Below are positions 33,322-47,284 of a stretch of 64,000 nucleotides of DNA, piece by piece. The stretch spans positions 13,566 to 77,565 of the forward strand of contig CAMKSE010000007.1 in assembly GCA_946415365.1 (NCBI GenBank), in the 5' to 3' direction. The notes under the pieces were generated by a model, which made no database searches, was not told where the DNA came from, and saw nothing but the letters and a program-made list of their open reading frames with translations. The position numbers and the translations under genes were made by a program. The DNA is from an uncultured Prevotellaceae bacterium. Its GTDB lineage: Bacteria > Bacteroidota > Bacteroidia > Bacteroidales > Bacteroidaceae. Position 1 is the first letter of the stretch. Each line of letters starts with the position of its first letter.

Positions 33322-33687
33322 ATGAAGAAAAAAATACTAATACTTGACGACAAAGAGACCATCGCTAAGGTGCTCTCCATCTATCTGATGAGCGACTATG
33401 ATGTGCAGTGGCTCCCGGATGGACTGCAGGGAGTGAAATGGCTCCAGGCAGGAAACACACCCGATCTTATCATCTCTGATATTCGTATGCCCGGCATGCG
33501 TGGTGACGATTTCTTGGAGTGGATCAAGCAAAACGAATTGTTTAAGCACATTCCCGTCATCATGTTGTCCAGTGAAGACTCCACCAGTGAGCGTATTCGC
33601 TTGTTGGAAATAGGTGCAGAGGACTATATTGTCAAGCCGTTCAACCCAATGGAGTTGAAAATCAGGGTTAAGAAGATTATACCATAA
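33322..33687 (+). CDS. Stand-alone response-regulator receiver (CheY-like) protein
   Basis: LILDD, phospho-acceptor context LIISDIRMPGM, MLSS and VKPF are all canonical REC positions. There is no output domain. Confidence 0.9.
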   Translation: MKKKILILDDKETIAKVLSIYLMSDYDVQWLPDGLQGVKWLQAGNTPDLIISDIRMPGMRGDDFLEWIKQNELFKHIPVIMLSSEDSTSERIRLLEIGAEDYIVKPFNPMELKIRVKKIIP

Positions 33688-33722
33688 TATATATAAGTAC
33701 ATATACATATTTTATTTTATAG

Positions 33723-34940
33723 ATGATAGGTATAGTTTATCTTGGTAGCAATCCAGAAACCCAGGAACGTCTGAAATACATTCCCGGAAGGTTGGTTCAG
33801 TTTACGACCAACTACAAGGATGCCGCCTCTGCCTGTGCCCCACATGTCCGTAATGAGCATGTCATCATGTTCTACGAGCAGACGGTTCAGGCAGAAGATA
33901 TCACGGCTATCACCTACATCAAAAAGAAGTGTAAGAATGTCTACATCATCCTGCTCACCAACCAGTTGACCTTGGATGACAGGAAGATGTACCAAAAGTG
34001 TGGCATCAACGACACGATTGACGCTAAGTCTTCTATCACTGAGATGAACAAGAAGATTCAGTTTATCTCTGACCGTGAGATGATGCTGTTCGACGATGCT
34101 CCCTCTAAGCACCGTATATTGCGTTTCAAGATTCCCCTTTGGAAACGTTTATTCGACATTTTCTTCTCGCTTTTGGCAATTATCATTCTTTCACCCGTCT
34201 TTATCATCACAGCTATTGCCATTCGTCTGGAGAGTAAAGGGCCTGTTATCTTTAAGTCCAAGCGTGTCGGTACCAACTACACCGTTTTCAACTTCCTGAA
34301 GTTCCGTTCCATGTATGCAGATGCAGAGCAACGCTTGAAGGAAGTGGCAAAGGAAGCTGGTAATCAGTATGCGGAGAAAGACCAACCTGAGGAAGGCAAG
34401 GACAATCAGAGTGTTATCACAGCTCCACTTGGCGATGAGGCAGAAATGCTGATGATGGATATGGGTATGGAATCCGCCATGATGATCAGCGACGATGAGG
34501 TGATGCTTGTCGGCGATGATTTTGTGGTGGCCGAATCCGACTTCAATAGGGAGAAGGAAGAGGAGAACAATAATGCCTTCGTCAAGATTGAGAACGACCC
34601 GCGTGTAACTAAAGTGGGTAAGTTTATACGTAAATACAGCATTGATGAGTTACCACAACTCTTCAACATATTAAGAGGCGACATGTCCATTGTTGGCAAT
34701 CGCCCGTTGCCTCTCTATGAGGCCGAGAAACTCACCATAGACTCTAGCATCGACCGCTTCATGGCTCCAGCCGGACTTACTGGCCTTTGGCAGGTAGAGG
34801 AGCGAGGTAAAGGAGGCCTGATGTCAGCAGAGGAGCGAAAGCAACTCGACATCACCTATGGACAGACCTACTGCTTCACACTAGATATGAAGATCATATT
34901 CCGTACCCTCACGGCATTCGTCCAAAAAGAAAACGTATAA
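33723..34940 (+). CDS. Phosphoglycosyl transferase (bacterial sugar transferase family) with N-terminal pseudo-receiver domain
   Basis: The C-terminal block NDPRVTKVGKFIRKYSIDELPQLFNILRGDMSIVGNRP is typical of PF02397. One TM helix (LFDIFFSLLAIIILSPVFIITAIAI). The N-terminal ~120 aa show a beta-alpha pattern like REC but lack the acidic pocket. Confidence 0.88.
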   Translation: MIGIVYLGSNPETQERLKYIPGRLVQFTTNYKDAASACAPHVRNEHVIMFYEQTVQAEDITAITYIKKKCKNVYIILLTNQLTLDDRKMYQKCGINDTIDAKSSITEMNKKIQFISDREMMLFDDAPSKHRILRFKIPLWKRLFDIFFSLLAIIILSPVFIITAIAIRLESKGPVIFKSKRVGTNYTVFNFLKFRSMYADAEQRLKEVAKEAGNQYAEKDQPEEGKDNQSVITAPLGDEAEMLMMDMGMESAMMISDDEVMLVGDDFVVAESDFNREKEEENNNAFVKIENDPRVTKVGKFIRKYSIDELPQLFNILRGDMSIVGNRPLPLYEAEKLTIDSSIDRFMAPAGLTGLWQVEERGKGGLMSAEERKQLDITYGQTYCFTLDMKIIFRTLTAFVQKENV

Positions 34941-34968
34941 AACAAATAACACCATAATCCATATCGCA

Positions 34969-35925
34969 ATGAACAAGTTTAAGCGACTATTTTTAATTGT
35001 AGCAGTCACCGGAATTGGCACCTCCGCCTTCGCCCAGTTCGACGAGAGCGGTATTGCGGCCGGTTTCTTCGACTCCAGTAAGGACAAGGACATTAATTTC
35101 TCTGAGTTTCATCTGCCGCCATTGGCAGTTTTGTTAGAAAATGCCAAGGCGAATCCCCAGATTCTGTCTTTAGAGAAAGCCAGACAAATAGCTGAGGCAG
35201 AAGTGGCAAAAACAAAACGAAGTATCTTCGGCCATCTTTCAGGACATGCAAGTTACAGTTATGGTAAAGGAGACATGTGGGGAAACAATTCATCTACAGT
35301 GACGAGCTATATGATGTTACAGTATCAAGGTACGGAAACAGCTTATTGGAATGTGGGAGCCAATTTTTCAATCACCCTTGAAGACATCCTGGATTATGTA
35401 CCTTCTATTAAACGCTCAAGATTAGAAGCAGATCAAGCTGTCATTGCAAAGGATATCGCATTTGACCAACTCAAATTACAGATAGCGACGCTTTTTGTTA
35501 AGATTACAAACGACTTAGTGACTCTGAAAACCATGGGTGAAGCTGCTGCTGCCTATCAAGGAGCTGGTGCTTTAAATCGGGAAGAATTTGAGAATGGAAA
35601 TATGGAGATAGAGACATTTGCTCATACCAAATTATACGAAAGTGGACAGGTGCAAGGCTACCAACAGATGCAAACATCAATTACTACAGACATTCTCACA
35701 TTGGAAATATTAACCCACACGCCAATTATCACAAATTCAACAACAGAAATAACACTGGATACTCATGTGGTGAAGTCGGACAAGGAGATTGCAAAAGAGA
35801 ACAAGGCTGTAGAAAAGCGCATTAAAAAAGCGGTTGAGGAAGAGAATAAGAGAACTAAAGCTTTAGAAAAAGCAGAAAAAAAAGCAGAAAAAGCTGCTGC
35901 TAAAGCTGCTAAAAAACAGAAGTAA
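34969..35925 (+). CDS. Single-repeat TolC/OEP-like outer membrane protein with Lys/Ala/Glu-rich tail
   Basis: Signal peptide MNKFKRLFLIVAVTGIGTSAFAQ. One OEP-type repeat (LENAKANPQILSLEKARQIAEAEV ... YSYGK ... WNVGANFSITL ... long helices). Tail is KAEKKAEKAAAKAAKKQK. Confidence 0.6.
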   Translation: MNKFKRLFLIVAVTGIGTSAFAQFDESGIAAGFFDSSKDKDINFSEFHLPPLAVLLENAKANPQILSLEKARQIAEAEVAKTKRSIFGHLSGHASYSYGKGDMWGNNSSTVTSYMMLQYQGTETAYWNVGANFSITLEDILDYVPSIKRSRLEADQAVIAKDIAFDQLKLQIATLFVKITNDLVTLKTMGEAAAAYQGAGALNREEFENGNMEIETFAHTKLYESGQVQGYQQMQTSITTDILTLEILTHTPIITNSTTEITLDTHVVKSDKEIAKENKAVEKRIKKAVEEENKRTKALEKAEKKAEKAAAKAAKKQK

Positions 35926-35945
35926 AACGAAAAAACATTACCATT

Positions 35946-38123
35946 ATGGATTTATTCAGATATATTGTCAGGTTCTTATACAAGATTCGTTGGTATTTGA
36001 TCATTTTGCCACTCATTGCATTGGTAGTAGCTTGGTTTATGACGCGCAATATGGAGCGTATTTATAACACCAATACGACCATCTACACTGGTATGATTAC
36101 AGCCTATAATATAGAAGGTGGTTCAGGAACAGCTGGTGGAAATGCACAGACCAACATGAGAAATCTCATGTTACTTATAACGACTGATGTGACCATCCAT
36201 GAGGTATCACTCCGTCTATTTGCTCGTTGCATGATGTATGGCAATACCAATAAGGACAACAACTATATTTCTGCAGAGCATTTCCGCCAGTTAAACAACA
36301 GTGTTCCAACTGATGTCAAAGCCCTGATCAACCATAATAGCGAGAATGCCACCTATGCCAACCTAAAGGCATACGAAAAGCCAACTCAGGACAACTATCT
36401 CTTTGGTATAACGAACTACCACCCATATTTTGGCATCAATAGCATTACAAGTAGATTAAAAGTATTGCAACTAAACCAAAGTGATATTATTGATATTGGC
36501 TATTCTGCAAATGATGCTGGTATTGCCTACAACACATTGGATATTCTGAACGAAGTCTTTGCTCGCCAGTATGCCCAATTACGTTATGGCGAGACCAATA
36601 ATGTCATCAAGTTTTTTGAGCGCGAAGTTGCAAGACTCTACCGCATTTTGACCCATGCAGAGGACGACCTCATTCGTTATAATGTAGAAAAACGCATTAT
36701 TAACTATAGCGAGCAAACAAGAGTTTTGTCCGGCATGGAAGGTTCACAACAGATAGCCGAAAACACACTTCTCAAAGACCAATCTACCACCCGGGCATTG
36801 ATGGATTACTTAGAACGACAATTAGGTGATCGTGCGAAAATAATAAAAGCAAATAAGGAATTTACCAACCAAGTTACCGATATCTCTCGCATCCAGTCCC
36901 GCATTTCTAACCTCCGTCTCATGAGTAGCGAAGGAGGTGGCAGTGGTGTGGAATCACAGTTGGAATTGGCCAAAGCAGAGAAGATGCTTCAAAATGCCAC
37001 AGACAATGTCCGCAGCCTAATAAAAGATATCGAAGCAGGCAATTATAGTACGGAGACAGGTGTCAGAGCCAACGACATGATTGGCCGATGGCTAGATCAA
37101 GTATTGCTTTTGGAAAAAACCAAGGCAGAAATAGCTTCTCAAGAACTTATGCGTGCCAATATTGATAAGCAATTCCTTTATTATGCACCAATTGGAGCAA
37201 CGCTGGGTCGTAAAGATCGACATATTGGCTTTATCGAAGGTAACTATATGGAGATGCTGAAGGCCCTGAATGCAGCACGTCTTCGTCAGAAGAATCTCCA
37301 GATGACAACCGCTACCCTTCGAGTACTAAACCCGCCTTTGTTCCCGATGAATGCCCAGCCCACGAACCGTATGATGATTCTGCTCGGCGCATTCATGCTG
37401 ACATTCTTGCTGACGGCCATGTACTTCTTCATCATCGAGTTACTCGATCGCACCTTGCGTGATCGTATGCGTTCGGAGCGTATCACCAAAATACCTGTTA
37501 TGGGGTGTTTCCCGAAGGAGAGCACATTACGCTATCGTCGTTTCAATAAGACCATTGCGGACATGGCACTCCGTCAGTTGAGCAAGGCTCTCCTCCCCCA
37601 TTTTAAGGAAGGCCAGCAGAATGTCCTTAATCTGCTTTCGACAGATGCTGCTAATGGTAAGAGTTACTTGGCTCAGGAACTGGAGAACTATTGGATTTCC
37701 ATAGGTCTGCAAGTCCGTCGTCTTACCTACGACGAGGATTTCCTTGCTGAGGACAGCCGTTTCATCATGGCCAAAGACATCAAGGACATCTGTCCAGACA
37801 TCCTGCCCAATGAGATTGCCATCATCGAATATCCCAACTTGGACGATAACTCCATTCCTTCAGGATTATTGAATATGGGTACCATCAACCTTTTGGTGAC
37901 TCGTGCCAATCGTACATGGAAAGATGTTGACCAGAAGGCTCTCAAGGAACTTCAGTCACAACTTGAGAATCAGGATACGCTCTTCATGTACCTCACTGAG
38001 GCTCAGCGTTATGCTGTGGAAGAGTTTGTTGGCCAGCTACCACCATACACCAAGTTCAACAACTTTGTATACCGTATATCCCAGATGGGTTTGACCGCAG
38101 TAGAAAACAGTCACGCAAAGTAA
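35946..38123 (+). CDS. Polysaccharide co-polymerase (Wzc/GumC-like PCP) with BY-kinase-like P-loop domain
   Basis: N-terminal TM, long coiled-coil periplasmic region, second TM (MMILLGAFMLTFLLTAMYFFIIELL). Cytoplasmic domain has LLSTDAANGKSY (Walker A-like), YDEDF (A'-like) and IAIIEYPN (B-like, Asp to Glu). Confidence 0.7.
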   Translation: MDLFRYIVRFLYKIRWYLIILPLIALVVAWFMTRNMERIYNTNTTIYTGMITAYNIEGGSGTAGGNAQTNMRNLMLLITTDVTIHEVSLRLFARCMMYGNTNKDNNYISAEHFRQLNNSVPTDVKALINHNSENATYANLKAYEKPTQDNYLFGITNYHPYFGINSITSRLKVLQLNQSDIIDIGYSANDAGIAYNTLDILNEVFARQYAQLRYGETNNVIKFFEREVARLYRILTHAEDDLIRYNVEKRIINYSEQTRVLSGMEGSQQIAENTLLKDQSTTRALMDYLERQLGDRAKIIKANKEFTNQVTDISRIQSRISNLRLMSSEGGGSGVESQLELAKAEKMLQNATDNVRSLIKDIEAGNYSTETGVRANDMIGRWLDQVLLLEKTKAEIASQELMRANIDKQFLYYAPIGATLGRKDRHIGFIEGNYMEMLKALNAARLRQKNLQMTTATLRVLNPPLFPMNAQPTNRMMILLGAFMLTFLLTAMYFFIIELLDRTLRDRMRSERITKIPVMGCFPKESTLRYRRFNKTIADMALRQLSKALLPHFKEGQQNVLNLLSTDAANGKSYLAQELENYWISIGLQVRRLTYDEDFLAEDSRFIMAKDIKDICPDILPNEIAIIEYPNLDDNSIPSGLLNMGTINLLVTRANRTWKDVDQKALKELQSQLENQDTLFMYLTEAQRYAVEEFVGQLPPYTKFNNFVYRISQMGLTAVENSHAK

Positions 38124-39659
38124 ATGTCAAAAGTTTATTCAAATAGATTAACAGAATATACCCATGAAAACGGAGGAAGAGTAGCTTTACTCTTTCTCCT
38201 GTTTGCACTTGCCATTTATGAGTTCATTCATGCCGGCTTCAACGCATTTGCAGTTATTTGCCTTTCACCATTAGCGATTCTATTTTGCTATGTAGCCTTT
38301 CGGTGGAAAATGACTGTATTCTGGGCTCTGATAGTAGTCAATTGGTTCATTATGAACCGTAATTTTGAAGATTATATTTCATTTCCCAAATCCTTACCTG
38401 AAGAATTACTTGAATTGACACTCATTGCGATTGCCATCATTGACATACGGAAGGAAACCTATTTTGAAAGAGCCTGGAATTTCATGCTACTAGCTGTCAT
38501 GGTATGGCTAGGATTTTGTATTATTGAAATTTTTAATGACTCTTGCGGATTAGGTATGAATGTAAACACATGGTTTACTGGTTTCAGATTGATGGCACTC
38601 CATCTTGTCTGGATTATTCTGGTATTCTCTCTGTACATTTCAAATCCACAAAGGCTTCTATTATATTTAAGGGTATGGGCTGGACTTTCTCTGTTATCAG
38701 CTTTTTGGACTTGGAAAATGAAAACTTACGGATTTACTGATACAGAACATAATTGGATTTGGAACAGTGCATACCAAACTCATATTTTAAATGGAGGTAC
38801 ATTAATTCGTTATTTTTCCACATTCAATGATGCTGCGACTTATGGTTGTAACGCGAGCGCATCCGCTGTTGCTTTTCTAATTTTTGGTATCACGTCAAAA
38901 TTAAAAATTGACAAAATTTTCTTCTTTATAACGGCAGTTGCTGTCATATGGGGTATGTTCCAATCAGGAACAAGAACAGCCATCATAACATTAATAGCAG
39001 GTTTCATTGTTTTCTTATTCTTAGCAAGATCCACTAAGATATTAATTCCAAGTGCCATTATCGGTGGTTTTTTCATTTTCATACTTATCTTTACTAATAT
39101 TGGTAATAGCAGCCAGCAAATGCGCAGAATGAGGTCTGCATTTAAGAAGAGTGATGCATCAGCAACTGTTCGTGACATCAATAAAGTTGCCATCGCGAAA
39201 TATATGAAAGAAGCCCCATGGGGTATAGGTTTGGGAATGATGTCATACGACATACCAGCGAATAATAAATTTAAAAAATTATCAGAAATACCGCCTGATT
39301 CTGAATATGTGTTTATATGGGTTAGAACAGGTCCTGTTGGAGTTACCGTATTCACATGTTGTATGGTGATGATGCTCTTAGGAGGATGTGTTATTGTTCT
39401 ATTTAGGCTCAAAAGCCCCTCTCTCGTTGGGATTGGTGGGGGATTATGTGCAGCATTTGTATCAATTCATTTAGGAGCATATGCTAATCAGATTCTTTTT
39501 CAATATCCTAACGGAATAACATTCTTTGGAGGAATGGCTATAGTTTATCTACTTCCATATATTGAGCCTGAATGGATTAAATACGAAGAAAAGCGATTAG
39601 CAAAAATAGAAGAAAGAAAACGCTTAAGATTGGAAAAGAAATTAGCTTCAAGAGTGTAA
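38124..39659 (+). CDS. Wzy / O-antigen-ligase-like polytopic membrane protein
   Basis: At least 10 TM helices, a central loop with the QSGTRTAIITL block typical of the Wzy_C family, and a charged C-terminal helix (EEKRLAKIEERKRLRLEKK). Confidence 0.7.
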   Translation: MSKVYSNRLTEYTHENGGRVALLFLLFALAIYEFIHAGFNAFAVICLSPLAILFCYVAFRWKMTVFWALIVVNWFIMNRNFEDYISFPKSLPEELLELTLIAIAIIDIRKETYFERAWNFMLLAVMVWLGFCIIEIFNDSCGLGMNVNTWFTGFRLMALHLVWIILVFSLYISNPQRLLLYLRVWAGLSLLSAFWTWKMKTYGFTDTEHNWIWNSAYQTHILNGGTLIRYFSTFNDAATYGCNASASAVAFLIFGITSKLKIDKIFFFITAVAVIWGMFQSGTRTAIITLIAGFIVFLFLARSTKILIPSAIIGGFFIFILIFTNIGNSSQQMRRMRSAFKKSDASATVRDINKVAIAKYMKEAPWGIGLGMMSYDIPANNKFKKLSEIPPDSEYVFIWVRTGPVGVTVFTCCMVMMLLGGCVIVLFRLKSPSLVGIGGGLCAAFVSIHLGAYANQILFQYPNGITFFGGMAIVYLLPYIEPEWIKYEEKRLAKIEERKRLRLEKKLASRV

Positions 39660-39661
39660 TA

Positions 39662-39697
39662 TATTGAAGATTGGTTATTGAAGATTGAATATTGCGG
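39662..39697 (+). repeat. 2.5 copies of a 14-mer (equivalent to five ATTGNNN heptamers) filling the Wzy-GT2 junction
   Basis: tattgaagattggt tattgaagattgaa tattgcgg. Contains the only in-frame start candidate (TTG at 39685) of the GT2 gene. Confidence 0.9.
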
Positions 39698-40638
39698 TTT
39701 CTATTGTCACCATCAATTACAATGGACTGGAAGACACCTGTGCATTGATTGAGTCCATCCCCTTCAATGAAAACATGGAGGTGATTGTAGTTGATAATGC
39801 CTCAAATAATCACGAAGCAGAAACCATTGCACAGCGATATCCACGAGTCAATGTCATTAAAAGCGATAAAAATCTAGGTTTTGCAGGAGGTAATAACTTA
39901 GGAATTCAAGCAGCTCAAGGCAAATATCTGTTCTTGATCAACAATGATACAATTTTTAAGGATTTCAATGTTCGAGCTCTTATTGAAAGAATGGAATCAT
40001 CTCAAAAAATAGGCATCGCTTGTCCTAAGATACGTTTTGCCTGGGGAACGAATCCAATTCAATTCGCAGGCTATACATCTCTTTCAATAATTACTGTCCG
40101 CAATCAGGCCATTGGCTTCAATGCAGAAGATCATGGACAATACGACACTGCCCACCCTACGCCATACGCTCATGGCGCAGCCATGCTGATTCGTCATGAC
40201 GCCATCAACAAGGTGGGACTTATGCCAGAATGTTATTTCCTGTATTATGAAGAACTGGATTGGTCTATGATATTCACTCGAGCTGGCTATCAGATATGGT
40301 ATGAACCTAAATGCACAATCTACCACAAAGAAAGTCAAGCAACAGGTCAGAACAGCCCTTTACGCACCTATTATATCACACGCAACAGGTTTCTATTAGT
40401 CAAGCGAAATCCGAAGGAATTCATCCAGCCACTTGCTTACTTGTATCTCTTCTGCATTGTTGTCTTACGCGACATATTGAAGTATATATTCTCTTTTCGA
40501 TTTGATCTCTTGAAAGCTACACTTCGTGCTCTAAAAGATTTCATTCTATACGCTCAGTCTAATGCCGCTTGCACGCGCTCGGCTCTGCCGCTTATTCGAG
40601 CATCAGCGAGTCTTAAGAACGTGAAGCAAAAACTGTAA
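39685..40638 (+). CDS. Glycosyltransferase family 2
   Basis: VSIVTINYNG...VVDNASNN...NLGFAGGNN...INNDT motifs. TTG start: an in-frame TGA at 39679-39681 excludes any upstream ATG. Confidence 0.82.
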   Translation: MNIAVSIVTINYNGLEDTCALIESIPFNENMEVIVVDNASNNHEAETIAQRYPRVNVIKSDKNLGFAGGNNLGIQAAQGKYLFLINNDTIFKDFNVRALIERMESSQKIGIACPKIRFAWGTNPIQFAGYTSLSIITVRNQAIGFNAEDHGQYDTAHPTPYAHGAAMLIRHDAINKVGLMPECYFLYYEELDWSMIFTRAGYQIWYEPKCTIYHKESQATGQNSPLRTYYITRNRFLLVKRNPKEFIQPLAYLYLFCIVVLRDILKYIFSFRFDLLKATLRALKDFILYAQSNAACTRSALPLIRASASLKNVKQKL

Positions 40639-40660
40639 ACTGTAAACCGTAAACTGTAAA
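40633..40660 (+). repeat. (CYGTAAA)x4 array, reverse complement of the GTTTAYA family, at the GT2-synthase junction
   Basis: ctgtaaa ctgtaaa ccgtaaa ctgtaaa cgaaataatt-ATG. The upstream stop TAA (40636-40638) lies in unit 1. Confidence 0.9.
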
Positions 40661-40670
40661 CGAAATAATT

Positions 40671-41822
40671 ATGACTATAACAACATGGGATTTATTAATA
40701 TGGGGCGACATCATCCTATTCATAATAGTAGCAGCCGCAGTCCTCTATTTAGGTGTCTTTGCCATAGCCGCCCTGATAAACCGTCATCATGAATCGATAC
40801 GGTCTAAGAAACAAAACCGCATCGTTATTCTGATACCAGCCTACAAACAAGATGCCATTATTGAGCAGACCGTCATATCAATCCTGTCACAAGCCTACCC
40901 TCAGCGTATGTTCGACGTTGTTGTTATTTCCGACCATCAGGAAGAAATGACCAACATGCGTCTGGCACAATACCCGATTACACTCTTGACGCCTAACTTT
41001 GAAGAGAGCACGAAGGCAAAATCCCTCCAATATGCCATTCTCAACCTACCCGAGTTTAAAATCTATGATATGGCCTTGATTCTTGATGCCGATAATATCG
41101 TTGAACAGGATTTTCTTGCCAAGGTCAACGATGCCTTTGAAACAGCAGCGACCAAGGCTATCCAATTGCATCGCATTTCAAGAAACAGGGATACAAGCGC
41201 AGCCAGATTAGGAGCTCTTTTCGAGGAAATCAACAATGCCATCTTCCGCCGTGGACACATCAATCTCGGATTGTCATCCGCTTTGGCGGGTTCGGGTGTT
41301 GCATACGACTTTGCCTGGTTTAAGACCAATGTCATGAAAACCCGTACTGCTGGTGAAGACAAGGAGTTGGAGGCATTACTTTTACGTCAGGAAATCTTCA
41401 TCGATTATTTCGATGACATATATGTTTATGGTGAGAAAAAACGCACCACGGCCAAGTTAAACCAACAGCATAGCCGTTGGGTCCAAGAACAATTCCACAA
41501 TTTTATCCGGAATGCTAAATTCCTGCCAGGGGCTTTATTTAGGAAACAGTACGACCTGGCAGACAAGATTATCCAATGGATGCTTATTCCCCGTGCTACA
41601 ATGATGGTCATCATCATTCTCATGAGTATCATCCTACCATTCATCTATATGACGCTGGTCATCAAATGGTGGATTTTAGGGGCTATTGCCCTCTTTATCT
41701 TTGCCCTGGCAACACCAGATTATCTCGTCAATGAAATATGGGAGAACACTTATCTTAATTCTCCTTTCACCAGACTTTGGCATTATATGAGGCCACAAAT
41801 ATTAACAAAGAAGAAGAAATGA
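40671..41822 (+). CDS. Membrane-embedded processive-type GT2 (synthase-like), paralog 1
   Basis: N-terminal TM, LDADN (DxD), TAGEDKEL (TED-like), QQHSRW (QxxRW), C-terminal TM helices. Confidence 0.78.
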   Translation: MTITTWDLLIWGDIILFIIVAAAVLYLGVFAIAALINRHHESIRSKKQNRIVILIPAYKQDAIIEQTVISILSQAYPQRMFDVVVISDHQEEMTNMRLAQYPITLLTPNFEESTKAKSLQYAILNLPEFKIYDMALILDADNIVEQDFLAKVNDAFETAATKAIQLHRISRNRDTSAARLGALFEEINNAIFRRGHINLGLSSALAGSGVAYDFAWFKTNVMKTRTAGEDKELEALLLRQEIFIDYFDDIYVYGEKKRTTAKLNQQHSRWVQEQFHNFIRNAKFLPGALFRKQYDLADKIIQWMLIPRATMMVIIILMSIILPFIYMTLVIKWWILGAIALFIFALATPDYLVNEIWENTYLNSPFTRLWHYMRPQILTKKKK

Positions 41823-42988
41823 TTTGGACTATTCTGCATAGCATAGATGTTGCCCTATGGGTTATCATCGCTGGCTCTGTAGCCTATGTGGTGTTTTTTG
41901 CCATCATATCACTATTCTATGAGAAGGAAGACCAGTTAGCTACTCATGCTGCAGCCCTAAGCAACAAACAAAGTAAGTTCCTCATTCTCTATCCCGCCTA
42001 TAAAGAAGACCGCGTCATCATCAATGCCGTAGAAACTTTCCTGTTGCAGGACTATCCATCCACTCATTATACGGTGGCTGTCGTCTCTGATCATATGCAG
42101 CAGGAGACCAATGACTATCTGAGCAAACTACCCATCACCCTGCTCACTCCTGAATTTGATAAGAGTTCTAAAGCCAAGGCGATGCAATACGCCATCAACG
42201 AAGTCAAGGGAGAATATGATCAGGTGGTGGTGCTCGATGCAGACAATGTTGTCCGACCCGATTTTTTATCCCAGTTGAATATTCTATGCACCATATATGA
42301 TGCCATCCAGTGCCACCGCTGTGCCAAGAATGCAGACAACGATGTAGCTGTACTCGATGGTGCCAGTGAAGAAATCAACAACACATTATTCCGTAAAGCT
42401 CACAACCGTCTTGGCATGTCATCAGCCCTCATCGGTTCTGGCATGTGCTTCAATTATGAACTATTCAAGAAGAACGTATTCCTGTTGTCCACAGCTGGCG
42501 AAGATCGTGAGATGGAAGCTTTACTGCTTCAACAAGAGATATTCATCAAATATGCGCCAGACATTCATGTTTTCGACGAGAAGGTCAGCAATCAAGATAA
42601 TTTCCAACGGCAACGCATGCGCTGGATGACCGCTCAAGTTCAGAGCCTGCTCAACAACTTGCCGAAAGTTCCCAACGCCATCGTTCATGGCAAGATCAAC
42701 TTCATCGACAAGACAATCCAGCAGGCACTCATTCCCCGTTCCATTCTGATTGTCCTATTGGCGGGTATCTCCATCTTCATGACCATCTTCATGCCTTCTT
42801 GGTGTGAAAAGTGGTGGATACTCTTTGCTTTGTTGGCTATCGCGCTGTTCATAGCGATACCACGCCAACTAAGGTTCCGTTCCTTTGCTAAAGTCTTTGC
42901 CATCCCAAGTCTCGTATTGCGTATGTTCAAGAACCTCCTCCACATCGACCGCAAGAATACCGATTTTATCCATACCCAACACGGTTGA
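41819..42988 (+). CDS. Membrane-embedded processive-type GT2 (synthase-like), paralog 2
   Basis: ORF 41777..42988. The ATG at 41819 overlaps the upstream TGA (ATGA). LDADN, TAGEDREM and QRQRMRW motifs. Alignable with paralog 1 over its whole length. Confidence 0.78.
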   Translation: MIWTILHSIDVALWVIIAGSVAYVVFFAIISLFYEKEDQLATHAAALSNKQSKFLILYPAYKEDRVIINAVETFLLQDYPSTHYTVAVVSDHMQQETNDYLSKLPITLLTPEFDKSSKAKAMQYAINEVKGEYDQVVVLDADNVVRPDFLSQLNILCTIYDAIQCHRCAKNADNDVAVLDGASEEINNTLFRKAHNRLGMSSALIGSGMCFNYELFKKNVFLLSTAGEDREMEALLLQQEIFIKYAPDIHVFDEKVSNQDNFQRQRMRWMTAQVQSLLNNLPKVPNAIVHGKINFIDKTIQQALIPRSILIVLLAGISIFMTIFMPSWCEKWWILFALLAIALFIAIPRQLRFRSFAKVFAIPSLVLRMFKNLLHIDRKNTDFIHTQHG

Positions 42989-43056: not shown

Positions 43057-44640
43057 ATGGAAGAGAGACATTATCCTGTTGGAATACAAACTTTTTCTGA
43101 AATCGTTCGAGGAGGTTATGTCTATATTGACAAAACCGACTTGATGTGGCGTATGCAGAATAAGAGAAAGTTTATATTCTTAAGCCGGCCGCGCAGATTT
43201 GGTAAGTCTCTCCTATCATCAACATTGCATTCGTTCTTTGCTGGTCACAAAGAGTTGTTCACTGGACTAAAAGTTATGAGTCTGGAAAACGAATGGGCGT
43301 CTTTTCCCGTTTTTCATCTAGACTTGAGTATTGCCAAGGGGAAAACATCCGCAATGGAATTAAAAGACTCGTTGATGTGGCTTATGCATCCTTTCTGCGA
43401 AGAGTATGGATTCGGCGTAAAAGAAGATACACCAGGAAAGATGGTTTCAGGACTCATTACTCGGGCCAGTCAGAAAACAGGAAAACAAGTAGTCATCATT
43501 GTCGATGAATATGATGCGCCACTATTGGATGTTTTGCACGAAGAAAATCTTGATGAATTACGTAAGGTCATGCAGGAGTTTTATACCCCTCTCAAGGCCT
43601 GCGAGAAAGACATTAAGTTCTGCTTCATTACTGGTATTACAAAATTCTCGCAACTGAGCATTTTTTCAACCATCAACAACCTGACAAACATTTCATTATG
43701 GCCTGAGTTCTCTGCCATTTGCGGCATCACAGAGAAGGAGCTATCAGAGCAAATGCAGGAAGACATTGAATTGATGGCTATCAGAAATCGTCTGAGTGTG
43801 ACGGAGATGCATGACAAGCTAAAGACTCAATATGACGGCTATCATTTCTCTGAAGATTCAGAAGAAGTGTACAACCCATTCAGTCTTTTGAAAGCCTTCG
43901 ATAGCAAAAAGATTGGAAGCTACTGGTTTGAAAGTGGTACACCTTCTTTTCTTGTCAAGGAAATGAAGCATTTTCGAACAGACATAATGTCTCTCGACCA
44001 ACTGGAAGTACCGTCTACTGCCTTTGACCAGCCTACAGAAGATATGGAAGATGCGCTACCACTTCTTTATCAAAGTGGCTATCTTACCATTAAGAGCTAT
44101 GACCCAGAACTCGACATGTACACTCTTTCTATCCCCAACCAGGAAGTGCGCATCGGCTATACAAGAGGACTTCTGCCATCCTATATAGGCTTAAAAGCTG
44201 CCGACGTACAGACTGGCTTTGCTGCCAAATTTTGGACTGCACTTAAAAAGAACGACATCGAATTAGCCATGAGAGAAATGAAATCATACATGGCTGGCAT
44301 TCCCTACGTTGAAGGATTTAAGGAAAAGCTATCTGAAGCCGCTACTGCCGAGGGCTTTTATGAATATACCATGTATCTGATATTCTCTATGCTTAACGTC
44401 TATGTAAGAACACAAGTAAAATGTGCTGGAGGACGTACTGACGTTGTCGTATGGATGCCGGAGACGATATATGTATTTGAGATAAAAGTATCAGAATCAT
44501 CAGAAAGGGCAATAAATCAAATTGAGGCTAACGGCTATGCCACCCAATTTACGACAGACGGCAGGAATATTGTGAAAGTTGGAATCAAATTTGATAAAGT
44601 AACAAGGGTACCAACCGAATGGACAGTAAAATATGAGTAA
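43057..44640 (+). CDS. AAA-ATPase-like plus PD-(D/E)XK nuclease-like protein (Bacteroidota AAA-ATPase_like / PDDEXK_9 architecture)
   Basis: N-terminus YPVGIQTFSEI...YVDKT...SRPRRFGKS. C-terminus GRTDVVVW...VFEIKV (D...ExK). Confidence 0.82.
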   Translation: MEERHYPVGIQTFSEIVRGGYVYIDKTDLMWRMQNKRKFIFLSRPRRFGKSLLSSTLHSFFAGHKELFTGLKVMSLENEWASFPVFHLDLSIAKGKTSAMELKDSLMWLMHPFCEEYGFGVKEDTPGKMVSGLITRASQKTGKQVVIIVDEYDAPLLDVLHEENLDELRKVMQEFYTPLKACEKDIKFCFITGITKFSQLSIFSTINNLTNISLWPEFSAICGITEKELSEQMQEDIELMAIRNRLSVTEMHDKLKTQYDGYHFSEDSEEVYNPFSLLKAFDSKKIGSYWFESGTPSFLVKEMKHFRTDIMSLDQLEVPSTAFDQPTEDMEDALPLLYQSGYLTIKSYDPELDMYTLSIPNQEVRIGYTRGLLPSYIGLKAADVQTGFAAKFWTALKKNDIELAMREMKSYMAGIPYVEGFKEKLSEAATAEGFYEYTMYLIFSMLNVYVRTQVKCAGGRTDVVVWMPETIYVFEIKVSESSERAINQIEANGYATQFTTDGRNIVKVGIKFDKVTRVPTEWTVKYE

Positions 44641-45457
44641 CATCAAGATTTTCATTTGTGCCCATAAAGAGGTGCCTCTGCCACAACATCCATACTTCCT
44701 GCCTGTTCAGGCAGGAGCAGCACTGCACGATCTAATCCCCAGCTACCAGCCAGATAATGAGGGAGAAAATATCTCATCTAAAAATCCACATTTCTGTGAG
44801 CTTACCTGCCATTATTGGGCATGGAAGAATTTGAAGAATGTTGATATTATCGGCCTTAATCACTATCGTCGCTATTTCGACTTCCAGAAGAAATGGCCGC
44901 AATTCTCTTCAGATAAACGTTTCATACCAACAGATGAGTTTTTGAAGCACCCCTACATATTTCCCAATCTTGAAGAGATATTACAAAAATATGACATCAT
45001 CCTGCCTGTAGCCCGTCACTGGCGTGTCAGCAATACCAAACAATACGGTGAGTATCATATTGCTAAGGATTGGGAAATGCTCCGTCAGATTATTAAGGAA
45101 CGTTCGCCTCAATATATCCACGCCTTTGAGAAGACGATGGATCACAGTAACAAATCCGTAGGCTACAACATGTTTATCACCAGTTGGAAGCATTTCGACG
45201 CCTATTCCGAGTGGCTCTTTGATATTCTTTTTGAGGTGGAACGGCGGGTCCCCCCTATTAATGACCCCATCCAAAGCCGTATCTATGGCTACATGAGCGA
45301 ACGGTTGATTAATGTTTTCTGCGAACACTATCATCTCCGCATCAAGCACATCCCCCTCATTATGCCACTGGATGATATCAGCAATAAGTTGAACATATCT
45401 AATTTTCATTCTGTCATAAGGAAAATAATTAACAACTATCATTATTACATGAAATGA
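44633..45457 (+). CDS. DUF4422-like putative glycosyltransferase
   Basis: IFICAHKEVPLP...PVQAGAAL...ENISSKNPHFCELTCHYWAWKN...HYRRYF pattern. Overlaps its neighbours by 8 and 4 nt. Confidence 0.65.
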   Translation: MSNIKIFICAHKEVPLPQHPYFLPVQAGAALHDLIPSYQPDNEGENISSKNPHFCELTCHYWAWKNLKNVDIIGLNHYRRYFDFQKKWPQFSSDKRFIPTDEFLKHPYIFPNLEEILQKYDIILPVARHWRVSNTKQYGEYHIAKDWEMLRQIIKERSPQYIHAFEKTMDHSNKSVGYNMFITSWKHFDAYSEWLFDILFEVERRVPPINDPIQSRIYGYMSERLINVFCEHYHLRIKHIPLIMPLDDISNKLNISNFHSVIRKIINNYHYYMK

Positions 45458-46464: not shown

Positions 46465-46498
46465 ACAAACTATATTGTCTGCAGAATTGCTATGACTA

Positions 46499-47284
46499 TT
46501 ATCTCTTTCGACTGCGAATATAAGTAATGATTTTATCTGCAATACATGTATCTAATACCAAGTACCCTTTGGCATTCAAATGCATAAGCCCGCCATCATA
46601 AAGGCCTCTGATATCCTTATAGCCATCAGGATTCCAGTCTTTATATGATATTGTTATCACCTTATTTTCCCATTTTTTTTCCTTTATTAAAGAATTATAT
46701 GCATCGCGATAATCCTGTATACAATCCATCTTTGACCATGTCAAAAGCATAGAAACCAAATATTGTATTTTTATCTGTCTGCTTCTGCGTTTATATGAGA
46801 AATGAATGTCATAAGAAGGTATTTCCAGTACGACGGGTGTTATATGTTTTTCCAATAACAGTTCTATAATGAGCCTCATATTCTCTTTATAATAACTTTT
46901 CCCCATTTTTCTGTCAGAATCATTGATTCCAGCCACTATAAAACAAAAGTCAGGCCCCCATTCTATTACATCTCTGATAGAATCTTCTCTAAAAATACAA
47001 TAATATAAATATTTAGATGTAAGGCCACTAATACCTGCCGTCCTAACGACAACAGGACGTCCTGTAGCATCGCTGACAGAGGAAACAATATCACAATTTA
47101 CATTTTTATGACGATCAGCCCAACTATCACCTATATAGGCGATTCGGATTGTATCGTCTTGATGACACATTACAGACAATCCTTTTTGTTTTTCTGCTGG
47201 AGTAAAATATGGCTTAAGATAATACCCTATACAAACAACTATTAGAGATAATACAAGCAATAACAATAATAACCACCGTCTCAT
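46499..47284 (-). CDS. SGNH/GDSL-family hydrolase with N-terminal membrane anchor
   Basis: ORF 46499..47329. Start MRRWLLLLLLVLSL lies downstream of the -7 box. Block I YIGDSW, block III AGINDS, block V DGGLMHL. Confidence 0.75.
   Translation of the reverse strand: MRRWLLLLLLVLSLIVVCIGYYLKPYFTPAEKQKGLSVMCHQDDTIRIAYIGDSWADRHKNVNCDIVSSVSDATGRPVVVRTAGISGLTSKYLYYCIFREDSIRDVIEWGPDFCFIVAGINDSDRKMGKSYYKENMRLIIELLLEKHITPVVLEIPSYDIHFSYKRRSRQIKIQYLVSMLLTWSKMDCIQDYRDAYNSLIKEKKWENKVITISYKDWNPDGYKDIRGLYDGGLMHLNAKGYLVLDTCIADKIITYIRSRKR

What the first reader, a model, noticed from the sequence alone, without database searches (positions are those of the whole stretch)
33322..42988. Hybrid polysaccharide module mixing Wzy-type and synthase-type parts, with no Wza/OPX exporter and no Wzx flippase
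Eight co-directional, tightly packed genes make up this module. They are a stand-alone receiver, a PGT with a pseudo-receiver, a single-repeat TolC-like outer-membrane protein, a PCP with a kinase-like domain, a Wzy/ligase-like protein, a soluble GT2, and two membrane-embedded GT2s carrying DxD, (T)AGED and QxxRW motifs. By established knowledge, PGT plus Wzy plus PCP belongs to Wzx/Wzy-dependent assembly, whereas QxxRW GT2s with flanking TM helices are synthase-dependent polymerase-translocases. No MOP/Wzx-like flippase and no Poly_export (Wza/OPX) protein is visible anywhere in the 64 kb. The only outer-membrane candidate is the half-size TolC-like protein. My inference is that this is an envelope-spanning secretion route that does not fit the three textbook pathways.
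Basis: partly seen in the sequence, partly recalled or inferred. Interest (0 to 1): 0.75.

Follow-up and report, generated by a model that had tools for sequence, protein, structure and literature searches.

The report
Polysaccharide export cassette with half-TolC channel
A rumen Prevotella carries a polysaccharide-making gene cassette, conserved across Bacteroidales gut bacteria, in which the usual outer-membrane exporter (Wza/OPX) is absent and a previously undescribed half-length TolC-like protein sits in its place; the missing-flippase part of the original puzzle is largely explained by neighbouring genes.

Summary
The eight genes and nearly all their domain assignments are real, and no ORF in the 64 kb hits a Wzx or Poly_export (OPX) model. 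The same-strand gene string runs on into a variable glycan block holding a Wzm/Wzt ABC-2 exporter (48495-50630). In sister Prevotella species either Wzm/Wzt or a probable divergent Wzx-like protein starts 0-150 bp after gene 8. So "no inner-membrane translocase" does not hold for this window.

The OPX anomaly does hold. Gene 3 is a single TolC/OMF repeat (AF2 pLDDT 88; Foldseek to OprM/TolC). It belongs to a small family (224 clusters at 50% identity). In all 27 loci examined it lies directly upstream of a PslE-like co-polymerase. Except where a contig ends early, a Wzy_C protein and a membrane GT2 with a hyaluronan/cellulose-synthase-like fold follow. No OPX is present in any locus.

Several non-Prevotella clusters end with no flippase of any kind. 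In a Bacteroides-like lineage the membrane GT2 has lost its catalytic motifs but is retained.

Best reading: a Psl-like, Und-P-primed, response-regulator-controlled pathway with a new TolC-type outer-membrane component. Processive synthase function is unproven. I found no description in the searchable literature.

Verdict: new variant of a known kind, interest about 0.6.

The parts
33322..33687 (+). g1: stand-alone phospho-receiver (orphan single-domain response regulator)
   Evidence: PF00072 E 1e-26. D9/D10/D53/S83/K105 are conserved. It is 99-100% identical across 14 Prevotella species and 55-66% identical to the Parabacteroides-, Bacteroides- and Muribaculaceae-type copies. No histidine kinase is found in the window.
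33723..34940 (+). g2: polyprenyl-phosphate glycosyl-phosphotransferase (small monotopic type) with an extra ~125-aa N-terminal cytoplasmic domain and a ~75-aa acidic insertion
   Evidence: PF02397 E 1e-59 in two stretches; TIGR03025 E 3e-72. One hydrophobic helix at 149-167. Receiver likeness of the N-terminal domain is inconclusive (hhalign probability 9%).
34969..35925 (+). g3: single-repeat TolC/OMF-like outer-membrane protein (signal peptide, one helix / beta-hairpin / long-helix repeat) plus a Prevotella-specific Lys/Ala/Glu-rich C-terminal helix (about residues 259-318)
   Evidence: PF02321 E 7e-9, one stretch. AF2 pLDDT 88. Foldseek top hits are OprM, TolC, CmeC and CusC, E 4e-6 to 1e-3, with ~210 residues aligned to half of 430-470-aa targets. 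The family has 224 clusters at 50% identity and a typical length of ~255 aa.
35946..38123 (+). g4: PslE-like polysaccharide co-polymerase (TM1 at 14-32, ~445-aa periplasmic domain, TM2 at 478-496) with a cytoplasmic P-loop pseudokinase-like domain
   Evidence: No Pfam hit. TIGR03007 6.6e-14, below cutoff. The profile is collinear with PslE 9v6l at E 5e-4. Topology. GK[ST] and IIEYP are invariant and there is no Tyr cluster.
38124..39659 (+). g5: Wzy/WaaL-superfamily polytopic membrane protein (polymerase or ligase). It is the hypervariable gene of the block.
   Evidence: PF04932 E 5e-12. About 10-12 hydrophobic helices. Only 42-78% identical between species whose g4 is 84-95% identical, and its relationships are decoupled from the species tree. 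GC dips to 0.365 at 38-40 kb. It starts at the base after the g4 stop codon.
39685..40638 (+). g6: GT2 glycosyltransferase without N-terminal TM helix
   Evidence: PF00535 E 1e-18; TIGR01556 rhamnosyltransferase 2e-19, below cutoff.
40671..41822 (+). g7: membrane-embedded GT2, a paralogue of g8 (39-40% identity). It lacks the family's C-terminal FIHTxH tail.
   Evidence: PF13641 5e-20 and PF13632 1e-16. LDADN, TAGED and QHSRW motifs. TM helices at 14-32, 313-331 and 335-353.
41819..42988 (+). g8: membrane-embedded GT2 with a HAS/BcsA-like fold. It is the orthologue of the single core GT2 of the other Bacteroidales cassettes.
   Evidence: PF13641 and PF13632. 40-48% identical to the core GT2 of L015-L023, with shared QxHR, EEINN..FRKxH, KWW and FIHTxH motifs. 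AF2 pLDDT 72.8. Foldseek top hits are hyaluronan synthases and BcsA, E ~1e-11, TMq 0.53-0.58. The 389-aa start matches orthologues and independent gene calls.
43057..44640 (+). AAA-ATPase_like / PD-(D/E)XK gene inserted between g8 and the variable block (window lineage only)
   Evidence: PF09820 6e-59 and PF08011 5e-16. No tblastn counterpart in L001-L014 or in L024-L027.
44633..48415 (.). Start of the variable glycan block: DUF4422 glycosyltransferase-like gene, two AT3 acyltransferases, and one GDSL esterase on the - strand
   Evidence: DUF4422 follows g8 by 4-7 bp in L001, L009, L012 and L024-27.
48495..50630 (+). Wzm (ABC-2 permease, 48495-49346) and Wzt (ATPase with C-terminal extension, 49353-50630): candidate inner-membrane exporter
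   Evidence: PF01061 8e-19 and PF00005 2e-22. Wzm/Wzt start 15-150 bp after g8 in L003, L011 and L013. They come after DUF4422 (plus an AT3 gene in some loci) in L001, L004, L008, L009 and L024-27.
50640..62349 (.). Rest of the variable block: DegT aminotransferase, ATP-grasp, octopine-DH-like, five GT2/GT4 genes, AT3-SGNH and AT3
   Evidence: GC is 0.32-0.39 here against 0.43-0.50 upstream. No PGT, Wzy_C, co-polymerase or OPX occurs in this block.
26907..30251 (+). ManC-Gmd-Fcl (GDP-mannose/GDP-fucose supply), syntenic upstream in all 14 species; link to the cassette is inferred only
   Evidence: synteny.

Best explanation
The eight genes are the conserved 5' assembly-and-export block of a larger surface-polysaccharide locus found across Bacteroidales. 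It works most like a Psl-type, undecaprenyl-phosphate-primed pathway, with two differences: the OPX protein is replaced, and the translocase is supplied by a neighbouring block.

Proposed steps:
1. Control (inferred). The phosphorylatable orphan receiver g1 regulates output, perhaps through the extra N-terminal domain of g2.
2. Priming (domain shown, activity inferred). g2 primes Und-P with a sugar-phosphate.
3. Building the lipid-linked glycan (inferred). g6, g7 and g8, together with the glycosyltransferases of the variable 3' block, build it at the membrane.
4. Crossing the inner membrane (genes shown, role inferred). This uses the translocase carried by the variable block: Wzm/Wzt in this window, a Wzx-like protein in other species.
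5. Periplasmic handling (inferred from family, position and hypervariability). The Wzy_C protein g5 polymerises or transfers the glycan. It is encoded directly after the co-polymerase, as PslJ works inside the PslE ring.
6. Crossing the periplasm and outer membrane. The PslE-like co-polymerase g4 passes the chain to an oligomer of the single-repeat TolC-like g3, which forms the duct in place of Wza/OPX. The fold and the strict synteny are shown. The channel role and the stoichiometry (6-mer or 8-mer) are inferred.

The membrane GT2 g8 (duplicated as g7 in Prevotella) is a conserved core part with a hyaluronan/cellulose-synthase-like fold. I treat it as a membrane-interface glycosyltransferase. 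It may have an additional, non-catalytic role in handling the lipid-linked glycan. I do not treat it as a proven processive synthase.
For: - Domains and topology.
- g3 is a single OMF repeat.
- The g3 family is small and Bacteroidales-wide, and sources annotate it only as 'TolC family protein'.
- The order [RR-PGT]-halfTolC-PCP-Wzy_C-GT2 is invariant in 14 GTDB Prevotella species, 4 further Prevotella contigs and 9 non-Prevotella loci. Two Prevotella contigs end early. No OPX occurs in any locus.
- g4 is collinear with PslE. PslD-PslE forms the trans-envelope conduit, and the PslJ polymerase sits in the PslE lumen (PMC13434223 abstract).
- Wzm/Wzt lies on the same strand in the window. Wzm/Wzt or a Wzx-like gene starts 0-150 bp after g8 in sister species.
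- The variable block has no PGT, co-polymerase or Wzy_C of its own. It plausibly depends on g2, g4 and g5.
- g5 is hypervariable. Its alleles group loosely with the downstream type rather than with the species tree, and GC dips locally.
- Myxococcus EPS is a precedent for an EpsU-type GT2 and an orphan receiver (EpsW) inside a classical Wzx/Wzy pathway (PMC7484181).
Against: - No experiment exists, and no multimer model could be run.
- A TolC-type duct has never been shown to carry a high-molecular-weight polysaccharide.
- If Wzm/Wzt exports a finished polymer, a Wzy polymerase is not expected, so the role of g5 (polymerase or ligase) is unresolved.
- The Parabacteroides- and Bacteroides-like clusters L020-L023 end with no Wzx or ABC exporter at all. 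The 'translocase in the variable block' idea therefore does not generalise, and a built-in translocation device remains possible.
- The Prevotella downstream block could be an independent O-antigen locus that merely abuts the cassette.
- The Wzx-like call rests on weak NCBIfam hits (28-30 bits, 2 of 5 proteins). Pfam, PDB and hhalign gave no support.
- The similarity of g4 to PslE is weak (E 5e-4).
Confidence: 0.5

Rival explanations
1. True hybrid. The membrane GT2(s) g7/g8 are processive synthase-translocases. They elongate a Und-PP-linked primer made by g2 (with adaptor glycosyltransferases) and push it through the inner membrane, so no Wzx or ABC exporter is needed. g5 acts as a WaaL-like ligase or release enzyme. 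g4 and g3 carry the chain out. The Prevotella Wzm/Wzt or Wzx-like block is a separate, adjacent O-antigen-type locus.
For: - g7 and g8 carry the full motif set: KAKA, DxD, QxHR, GSG, GED and QxxRW.
- The g8 model's best structural matches are hyaluronan synthases and BcsA over the whole length.
- The GT2 is part of the invariant core in every locus.
- Clusters L020, L021, L022 and L023 end with no Wzx or ABC exporter, and L020 and L023 even lack a PGT.
- Pfam's name for the g5 domain is O-antigen ligase.
- From memory: the Salmonella O:54 O-antigen combines Und-PP priming, a GT2 synthase (WbbF) and WaaL.
Against: - Only 1 + 2-3 hydrophobic helices are predicted, fewer than in solved synthases.
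- The TM part of the model has only moderate confidence (pLDDT 57-87).
- The non-processive PcManGT scores nearly the same.
- From memory: QxxRW and D,D,D motifs also occur in non-processive lipid glycosyltransferases, for example ceramide glucosyltransferase.
- The Bacteroides-like orthologues (L016, L022) have lost DxD, ED and QxxRW, yet the cluster stays intact.
- The hypervariability of g5 is more typical of a substrate-specific Wzy than of a ligase.
- The downstream genes have operon-like spacing after g8.
- The best HMM match is EpsU, from a Wzx/Wzy pathway.
Confidence: 0.25
2. ABC-transporter-dependent capsule analogue in Prevotella. Cytoplasmic glycosyltransferases complete the polymer on the lipid primed by g2. 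Wzm/Wzt exports it. g4 and g3 play the parts of KpsE and KpsD, forming a tripartite, efflux-pump-like ABC / adaptor / TolC-type assembly. g5 attaches or trims the glycan.
For: - Wzm/Wzt are on the same strand and directly follow g8 or DUF4422 in 8 of the 13 informative Prevotella species-level loci, counting the window, and also in L024-27.
- The KpsMT-KpsE-KpsD architecture is known (PMC11041684 abstract).
- A TolC-like protein normally partners an inner-membrane transporter plus a periplasmic adaptor (PMC8277102).
Against: - The same g3-g4-g5-g8 core occurs with a Wzx-like gene in 5 Prevotella species, and with no ABC exporter in all 9 non-Prevotella loci.
- g4 resembles PCP-2a/PslE, not KpsE or HlyD-type adaptors.
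- The conserved Wzy_C protein is unexplained in this model.
Confidence: 0.15
3. Ordinary Wzx/Wzy pathway with unlinked parts. The flippase and an OPX are supplied in trans from one of the many capsule loci that Bacteroidales genomes carry. g3 is an accessory outer-membrane or periplasmic protein, not the export pore.
For: - Only 64 kb of the genome is visible.
- From memory: Bacteroidales typically encode several capsule loci, each with Wza-like and Wzx genes.
- Muribaculaceae loci carry a Wzx at the edge of the cluster.
Against: - g3 keeps a fixed position between the PGT and the co-polymerase, or directly before the co-polymerase, in 27 of 27 loci across three families. No locus carries an OPX.
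- g3 has the complete beta-hairpin and long-helix elements of a channel-forming OMF repeat.
Confidence: 0.1

Closest known systems
Pseudomonas aeruginosa Psl system (PslA PGT, PslC GT2, PslD OPX, PslE co-polymerase, PslF/H/I GT4, PslJ Wzy, PslK Wzx-like, PslL AT3)
   Same: - Und-P priming by a Bac_transf enzyme.
- A co-polymerase with a degenerate cytoplasmic P-loop domain; g4 is collinear with PslE.
- A Wzy_C-type protein partnered with the co-polymerase.
- GT2 plus GT4 glycosyltransferases, and an AT3 acyltransferase in the non-Prevotella cassettes.
- PslD-PslE forms a continuous conduit (PMC13434223).
   Different: - There is no PslD/OPX. A single-repeat TolC-like protein occupies the outer-membrane slot.
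- Most clusters have no PslK-type flippase.
- The core GT2 is membrane-embedded and synthase-like.
- A stand-alone receiver heads the operon.
- Sequence similarity is marginal (E 5e-4).
Myxococcus xanthus EPS pathway (EpsZ, EpsU, EpsV, EpsY/EpsX, Wzx, Wzy, orphan regulator EpsW)
   Same: - The best NCBIfam matches of g7/g8 (EpsU), and matches of g1 (EpsW) and g2 (EpsZ), point to this system.
- It has an orphan single-domain receiver controlling EPS.
- It has a GT2 encoded next to the co-polymerase (PMC7484181).
   Different: - All scores are far below the equivalog cutoffs (72 against 700 bits, 60 against 200, 162 against 800), so these genes are not members.
- Myxococcus has Wzx, an OPX (EpsY) and a beta-barrel partner. 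This cassette has none of these in its conserved block.
TolC/OprM outer-membrane factors of tripartite efflux and type I secretion
   Same: g3 has the fold of one OMF structural repeat: a beta-hairpin plus long periplasmic helices. It hits Pfam OEP.
   Different: - Canonical OMFs have two tandem repeats per ~430-500-aa protomer, from an internal duplication (PMC8277102 section 6.2), and form trimers.
- g3 has one repeat (family length ~255 aa).
- g3 has no HlyD/MFP adaptor and no RND, MFS or ABC pump next to it. Its fixed neighbour is a polysaccharide co-polymerase.
Synthase-dependent systems (BcsA, hyaluronan synthase, PgaC, NodC; Salmonella O:54 WbbE/WbbF, the last from memory)
   Same: g7 and g8 share the motif set and the overall predicted fold.
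   Different: - There is no BcsB-, PilZ-, Alg44- or PgaD-type partner.
- There is no TPR/beta-barrel porin.
- A PGT, a co-polymerase and a Wzy_C protein are present.
- Fewer TM helices are predicted.
- The catalytic motifs are lost in one lineage.
E. coli group 2 capsule KpsMT-KpsE-KpsD
   Same: An ABC exporter, a periplasm-spanning co-polymerase and an outer-membrane channel are encoded in one locus in this window (PMC11041684).
   Different: - KpsD is an OPX, and KpsE is a PCP-3.
- That system has no Wzy_C and no PGT priming.
- The ABC exporter is absent from most members of the cassette family.

Membership tests
Wzx/Wzy-dependent pathway | Initiating polyprenyl-phosphate glycosyl-phosphotransferase | tested here: met
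   g2: PF02397 E 1e-59; TIGR03025 E 3e-72.
Wzx/Wzy-dependent pathway | MOP-family Wzx flippase in the locus | tested here: not met
   No PF01943/PF13440 hit in any window ORF. A probable Wzx-like gene follows g8 in 5 sister species (weak). A Pfam Wzx is present in Muribaculaceae loci. None is present in L020-L023.
Wzx/Wzy-dependent pathway | Wzy polymerase | tested here: inconclusive
   g5: PF04932 E 5e-12; TIGR04370 repeat-unit polymerase only 0.0026. The family also contains WaaL ligases. No solved relative was found by sequence.
Wzx/Wzy-dependent pathway | PCP-2a co-polymerase (Wzz/GNVR domains, 2 TM helices, BY-kinase domain) | tested here: inconclusive
   Topology is met. No PF02706/PF13807 hit. 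TIGR03007 is below cutoff. PslE match at E 5e-4.
Wzx/Wzy- and ABC-dependent pathways | OPX protein (Poly_export, PF02563) | tested here: not met
   No hit in the window. None in the precomputed Pfam of 13 annotated related loci.
BY-kinase (Wzc C-terminal domain) | Walker A, A' (DxD) and B motifs plus a C-terminal tyrosine cluster | tested here: not met
   GK[ST] and IIEYP are conserved. No conserved DxD and no Tyr cluster; the C-terminus is LPPxT...R...GLT. It is best called pseudokinase-like.
Synthase-dependent pathway | Membrane-embedded GT2 with D, DxD, ED and QxxRW motifs and a synthase fold | tested here: met
   Motifs. Foldseek top hits are HAS/BcsA, E ~1e-11.
Synthase-dependent pathway | Processive polymerisation coupled to translocation through its own TM channel | not testable with these tools
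   Only 3-4 TM helices are predicted. A non-processive PcManGT scores similarly. The motifs are lost in L016 and L022.
Synthase-dependent pathway | Dedicated co-polymerase or receptor (BcsB, PilZ, Alg44, PgaD) and a TPR/beta-barrel porin | tested here: not met
   No such domains in the locus.
ABC-transporter-dependent pathway | Wzm/Wzt (or KpsMT) ABC-2 exporter | tested here: met
48495-50630: PF01061 8e-19 and PF00005 2e-22.
TolC/OMF family | Two tandem OEP repeats per protomer (~430-500 aa) | tested here: not met
   One Pfam stretch. One repeat in the model. It aligns to about half of each OMF target. Family length is ~255 aa.
TolC/OMF family | OMF repeat fold (beta-hairpin plus long antiparallel helices) | tested here: met
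TolC/OMF family | Partner periplasmic adaptor (HlyD/MFP) and RND, MFS or ABC pump | tested here: not met
   No HlyD-type gene in the window or in related loci. The fixed neighbour is the co-polymerase.
Myxococcus EpsU/EpsW/EpsZ equivalogs (NCBIfam) | Score above the curated equivalog cutoff | tested here: not met
   72 against 700, 60 against 200, and 162 against 800 bits.

The most novel reading that the evidence does not exclude
The single-repeat TolC-like protein oligomerises into a TolC-type duct. A 6-mer would mimic a TolC trimer; an 8-mer would match an octameric co-polymerase. The duct docks tip-to-tip on the PslE-like co-polymerase. This would be a fourth, OPX-independent class of outer-membrane polysaccharide translocon, specific to Bacteroidales. 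In the clusters with no Wzx or ABC exporter, the conserved HAS-like membrane GT2, including its catalytically dead Bacteroides form, would move the lipid-linked glycan across the inner membrane in place of a flippase.
Probability: 0.25. Interest if true: 0.85.

Novelty: new variant of a known kind. Interest (0 to 1): 0.6.

Why it matters
Polysaccharide export across the Gram-negative outer membrane is currently attributed to three kinds of device: OPX proteins (alone or with a beta-barrel partner), TPR-linked beta-barrel porins of synthase systems, and, recently, secretins.

A TolC-type duct built from half-length subunits and paired with a co-polymerase would add a new kind. It would also link polysaccharide secretion to the architecture of efflux pumps.

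The cassette is abundant in rumen Prevotella. More than 6,400 proteins in the 90%-identity-clustered database matched at E <= 0.001, and the 120 best are at least 85% identical to g3. It is also present in human and mouse gut Parabacteroides-, Bacteroides- and Muribaculaceae-type genomes. Its product is therefore likely a major, regulated surface glycan of dominant gut bacteria.

Some clusters have no flippase, and one lineage retains a catalytically dead synthase-like GT2. These offer a tractable handle on how lipid-linked glycans can cross the inner membrane without Wzx.

Tried and rejected
- Exact-protein look-ups of g4, of the 100%-identical g3 cluster representative, and of P0287 found nothing on record.
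- The plasmid collection had no match to the module.
- Sequence search of g3 against the PDB gave only chance hits. The fold search was needed.
- Sequence search of g5 against the PDB gave nothing.
- The pseudo-receiver on g2 remains unproven (hhalign against the receiver profile, probability 9%).
The model therefore rests on a shallow alignment (A5) and has only moderate confidence.
- Testing the ~510-aa post-g8 proteins as Wzx:
  - Pfam gave nothing, even at E <= 10.
  - hhalign against the Muribaculaceae Wzx, and a PDB profile search, were negative.
  - Only NCBIfam WZX_like gave weak hits.
- The sigma-70 promoter and terminator scan was no better than shuffles and is not suited to Bacteroidota.
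- Seven literature searches found no description of this cassette or of half-length TolC proteins in polysaccharide export.
  - The P. bryantii EPS paper does not mention these genes.
  - The OPX-classes paper does not mention Bacteroidota or TolC.
  - The L. johnsonii 'novel mechanism' paper concerns GtrA/GtrB-like genes and is not a parallel.
- I rejected the idea that the window's cassette is a PEP-CTERM/XrtA system. Only a sub-threshold TIGR03007 hit supports it, and there is no exosortase.

Full report
**1. What is in the sequence**

The window carries eight + strand ORFs at 33322-42988, with gaps of 0-35 bp and one 4-nt overlap. HMM scans give the following.
- g1 is a receiver domain (1e-26).
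- g2 is a Bac_transf glycosyl-phosphotransferase (1e-59; TIGR03025 3e-72).
- g3 has one stretch of the OEP/TolC repeat (7e-9).
- g4 has no Pfam hit.
- g5 is Wzy_C (5e-12).
- g6 is a plain GT2.
- g7 and g8 are GT2s of the Glyco_tranf_2_3 / Glyco_trans_2_3 type.

LDADN, TAGED and QxxRW can be read directly in g7 and g8. Hydropathy gives g4 two TM helices flanking a ~445-aa periplasmic domain. It gives g7 and g8 one N-terminal and two or three C-terminal helices.

g8 almost certainly starts at ATG 41819. This gives 389 aa and overlaps the g7 stop by 4 nt. All orthologues, and an independent gene caller, agree.

I scanned about 60 ORFs covering the whole window. None hits a Wzx/MOP or Poly_export model.

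The 'pseudo-receiver' on g2 stays unproven (hhalign probability 9%). g1 itself has all the canonical phospho-acceptor residues.

**2. Where it comes from and how conserved it is**

A scan of one genome per GTDB species found 14 Prevotella/Prevotellaceae species, mostly rumen MAGs plus Prevotella sp. MA2016, that carry the g3 gene. In every one the order is identical: ManC-Gmd-Fcl / FGGY / g1-g8. Two contigs end early.

Identity to the window differs sharply by gene.

| Gene | Identity across species |
|---|---|
| g1 | 99-100% |
| g4 | 84-95% |
| g8 | 79-89% |
| g5 | 42-77% |

The g5 identity matrix is decoupled from that of g4 and g8. The window's GC content dips to 0.365 over g5. g5 therefore behaves like the substrate-specific, exchangeable gene of a glycan locus.

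**3. The outer-membrane component**

A search of all 1.84 billion cluster representatives found only 224 relatives of g3 at E <= 0.001. They are typically 245-280 aa long. The family alignment is clean.

The AF2 model has pLDDT 88. It shows a signal peptide, a helix (52-89), a long beta-hairpin (90-133), a 72-residue helix (137-208) and a return helix (214-249). That is exactly one OMF structural repeat. Prevotella adds a Lys/Ala/Glu-rich tail.

Foldseek against the PDB returns only OMFs at the top: OprM, TolC, CmeC, CusC, VceC and MtrE. About 210 residues align to roughly half of each 430-470-aa target. Canonical OMF protomers contain two such repeats, from an internal duplication (PMC8277102). 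So g3 has the fold of the family but fails its defining two-repeat architecture.

A profile of the distant members retrieved proteins that sources name only 'TolC family protein'. They come from Bacteroides ihuae, B. heparinolyticus, Parabacteroides timonensis and P. goldsteinii, Muribaculaceae and Barnesiella.

**4. The cassette across Bacteroidales**

I examined nine non-Prevotella contexts (L015-L023). All show the same core:

[receiver - PGT] - half-TolC - ~720-aa protein with no Pfam hit - Wzy_C - ~400-aa membrane GT2 (Glyco_trans_2_3) - GT4 ...

This is followed by variable glycosyltransferases, acetyl- or acyl-transferases, or a methyltransferase. L020 and L023 lack the receiver and the PGT. 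No locus has an OPX.

Only the Muribaculaceae loci have a Pfam-recognised Wzx, convergent at the cluster edge. L021, L022, L023 and L020 run into unrelated genes without any Wzx or ABC exporter.

The g4 family profile is collinear with P. aeruginosa PslE over residues 169-587 (E 5e-4). It keeps an invariant ELLDRTLRD juxtamembrane motif, a GK[ST] P-loop and an IIEYP Walker-B-like motif. It has no tyrosine cluster. It is a PslE-like co-polymerase with a pseudokinase-like tail.

In Psl, PslD (OPX) and PslE form the trans-envelope conduit, and the PslJ polymerase sits inside the PslE ring (PMC13434223). Here g5 starts at the base after the g4 stop codon.

**5.

The same-strand gene string does not stop at 42988. 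It continues as follows:
- an AAA/PD-(D/E)XK gene, found only in this lineage;
- DUF4422, AT3 genes and a GDSL esterase;
- Wzm (48495-49346) and Wzt (49353-50630);
- sugar-modification genes and five more glycosyltransferases.

This block has low GC (0.32-0.39).

Of the 13 informative Prevotella species-level loci (counting the window), 8 are of the ABC type. Wzm/Wzt follow g8 directly, or come after DUF4422 and in some loci an AT3 gene. The further contigs L024-27 show the same arrangement with 4-150-bp spacing.

In the other 5 species a ~510-aa polytopic membrane protein starts 0-20 bp after g8 or DUF4422. Pfam does not recognise it, even at E <= 10. Two of the five hit NCBIfam 'WZX_like O-unit flippase-like' at 1e-6 and 2e-7. 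hhalign and PDB searches gave no further support. I call it a probable divergent Wzx, with moderate confidence.

The variable blocks seen (the window, and L024-27) contain no PGT, co-polymerase or Wzy_C of their own. This is consistent with dependence on g2, g4 and g5.

So in Prevotella a translocase is at hand, and the 'no flippase' anomaly largely dissolves. In the compact Parabacteroides- and Bacteroides-like clusters it does not.

**6. The membrane GT2s**

g8 is the orthologue of the single core GT2 elsewhere (40-48% identity). They share QxHR, EEINN..FRKxH, KWW and a C-terminal FIHTxH. g7 is a Prevotella paralogue.

It matches Chlorella-virus and Xenopus hyaluronan synthases and BcsA best (E ~1e-11, TMq 0.53-0.58). 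The non-processive archaeal membrane mannosyltransferase PcManGT scores 5e-11.

The best NCBIfam match is EpsU. EpsU is one of the glycosyltransferases of the classical Wzx/Wzy EPS pathway of Myxococcus, which also has an orphan receiver, EpsW (PMC7484181).

In two independent Bacteroides-like loci (L016, L022) the core GT2 has changed three motifs:
- DxD has become NSD;
- ED has become LT or LS;
- QxxRW has become RRQEW or QRVSW.

The ORF and the family-specific motifs are kept. Polymerisation in that lineage cannot depend on this enzyme, yet the protein is retained. That argues for an additional, non-catalytic role. It argues against a simple 'synthase' reading for the family.

**7. Most likely mechanism**

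The cassette works like a Psl-type pathway: Und-P-primed, receiver-controlled, with a co-polymerase and a Wzy_C enzyme in the periplasm. Two things differ.
- The outer-membrane conduit is a TolC-type duct assembled from single-repeat subunits instead of an OPX. The fold and synteny are shown. The function is inferred.
- The conserved block is combined with interchangeable translocases: Wzm/Wzt, a Wzx-like protein, or none visible.

I put about 0.5 on this. The other readings are:

| Rival | Confidence |
|---|---|
| Kps-like ABC/adaptor/TolC assembly, specific to Prevotella | 0.15 |
| Ordinary pathway with OPX and Wzx supplied in trans | 0.10 |

**8. Novelty**

Seven full-text searches found no description of the cassette, or of half-length TolC proteins in polysaccharide export. 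Databases call g3 'TolC family protein' or 'hypothetical protein'.

I file it as a new variant of a known kind: a co-polymerase-containing, Und-P-primed pathway with a new outer-membrane component.

The most novel reading that the evidence does not exclude has two parts. One is an OPX-independent TolC-type translocon. The other is a synthase-like GT2 acting in place of a flippase. I give this about 0.25.

The absence of a description carries the usual limit: only open-access text was searchable.

Noticed in passing
L016:14496-15713 and L022:14522-15769 (Bacteroides-like loci): The core membrane GT2 has lost all three catalytic motifs (LDADN to FNSDN, GED to DLT/DLS, QRxRW to RRQEW/QRVSW) and the C-terminal FIHTxH. 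It keeps an intact ORF and the family-specific QxHR / EEINN..FRKxH / KW motifs. This looks like a retained pseudo-glycosyltransferase.
   Followed up: partly
L005:17874-19487, L007:17904-19454, L010:17887-19419, L012:18742-20277, L014:17860-19401: A family of ~510-aa polytopic membrane proteins sits directly after g8 in 5 Prevotella species. It is invisible to Pfam even at E <= 10 and hits NCBIfam WZX_like only weakly. It is probably a highly divergent flippase family.
   Followed up: partly
window 43057-44640: An AAA-ATPase_like + PD-(D/E)XK (PDDEXK_9) gene is inserted between g8 and DUF4422. It is absent at this position in all 18 related Prevotella loci. Its end overlaps the DUF4422 start by 8 nt.
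   Followed up: partly
window 38001-40000 and 44001-60000: GC falls to 0.365 over g5 and to 0.32-0.39 over the downstream glycan block, against 0.43-0.55 elsewhere. This is consistent with horizontally exchanged, serotype-like DNA.
   Followed up: partly
window 34969-35925 (g3 residues ~259-318): A Prevotella-specific Lys/Ala/Glu-rich C-terminal helix (…KALEKAEKKAEKAAAKAAKKQK) is appended to the TolC-like repeat. It is absent from the ~255-aa relatives in other Bacteroidales. Function unknown.
   Followed up: no
window 33723-34940 (g2 residues ~205-280): An acidic, low-complexity insertion of ~75 aa splits the Bac_transf domain into two HMM stretches. There is also an N-terminal ~125-aa flavodoxin-like domain of unproven identity.
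   Followed up: partly
L021:20637-20963: A hybrid histidine kinase (GAF-HisKA-HATPase_c-Response_reg) begins ~300 bp after the end of the cassette in a Parabacteroides-like contig. It is a candidate partner for the orphan receiver. No kinase is visible in the window.
   Followed up: no
window 30223-32388 (+): A 721-aa ORF with no family hit overlaps two well-supported - strand genes (a xylose-isomerase-like TIM barrel at 30304-31623 and an FGGY kinase at 31651-33183). It is almost certainly spurious.
   Followed up: yes
window 4030-6408: A large Bacteroidota 'Putative porin' (PF14121 Porin_10, E 4e-196) lies 27 kb upstream of the cassette. No link to it was seen, since it falls outside the conserved synteny that could be inspected.
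   Followed up: no
window 26907-30251: ManC-Gmd-Fcl (the GDP-mannose to GDP-fucose route) lies upstream of the cassette in all 14 species. This hints that the product, or the neighbouring glycan, contains mannose or fucose.
   Followed up: no
window 49353-50630: Wzt has a ~170-aa C-terminal extension beyond the ABC ATPase domain that hits no Pfam family. Such extensions in O-antigen Wzt proteins bind the polymer's terminal cap (from memory).
   Followed up: no
L024:17080-18495 and L025-L027 equivalents: A BcGHD (PF10022) glycoside-hydrolase-like gene and a polysaccharide deacetylase lie inside the variable block of another Prevotella population. Neither is present in the window's block.
   Followed up: no
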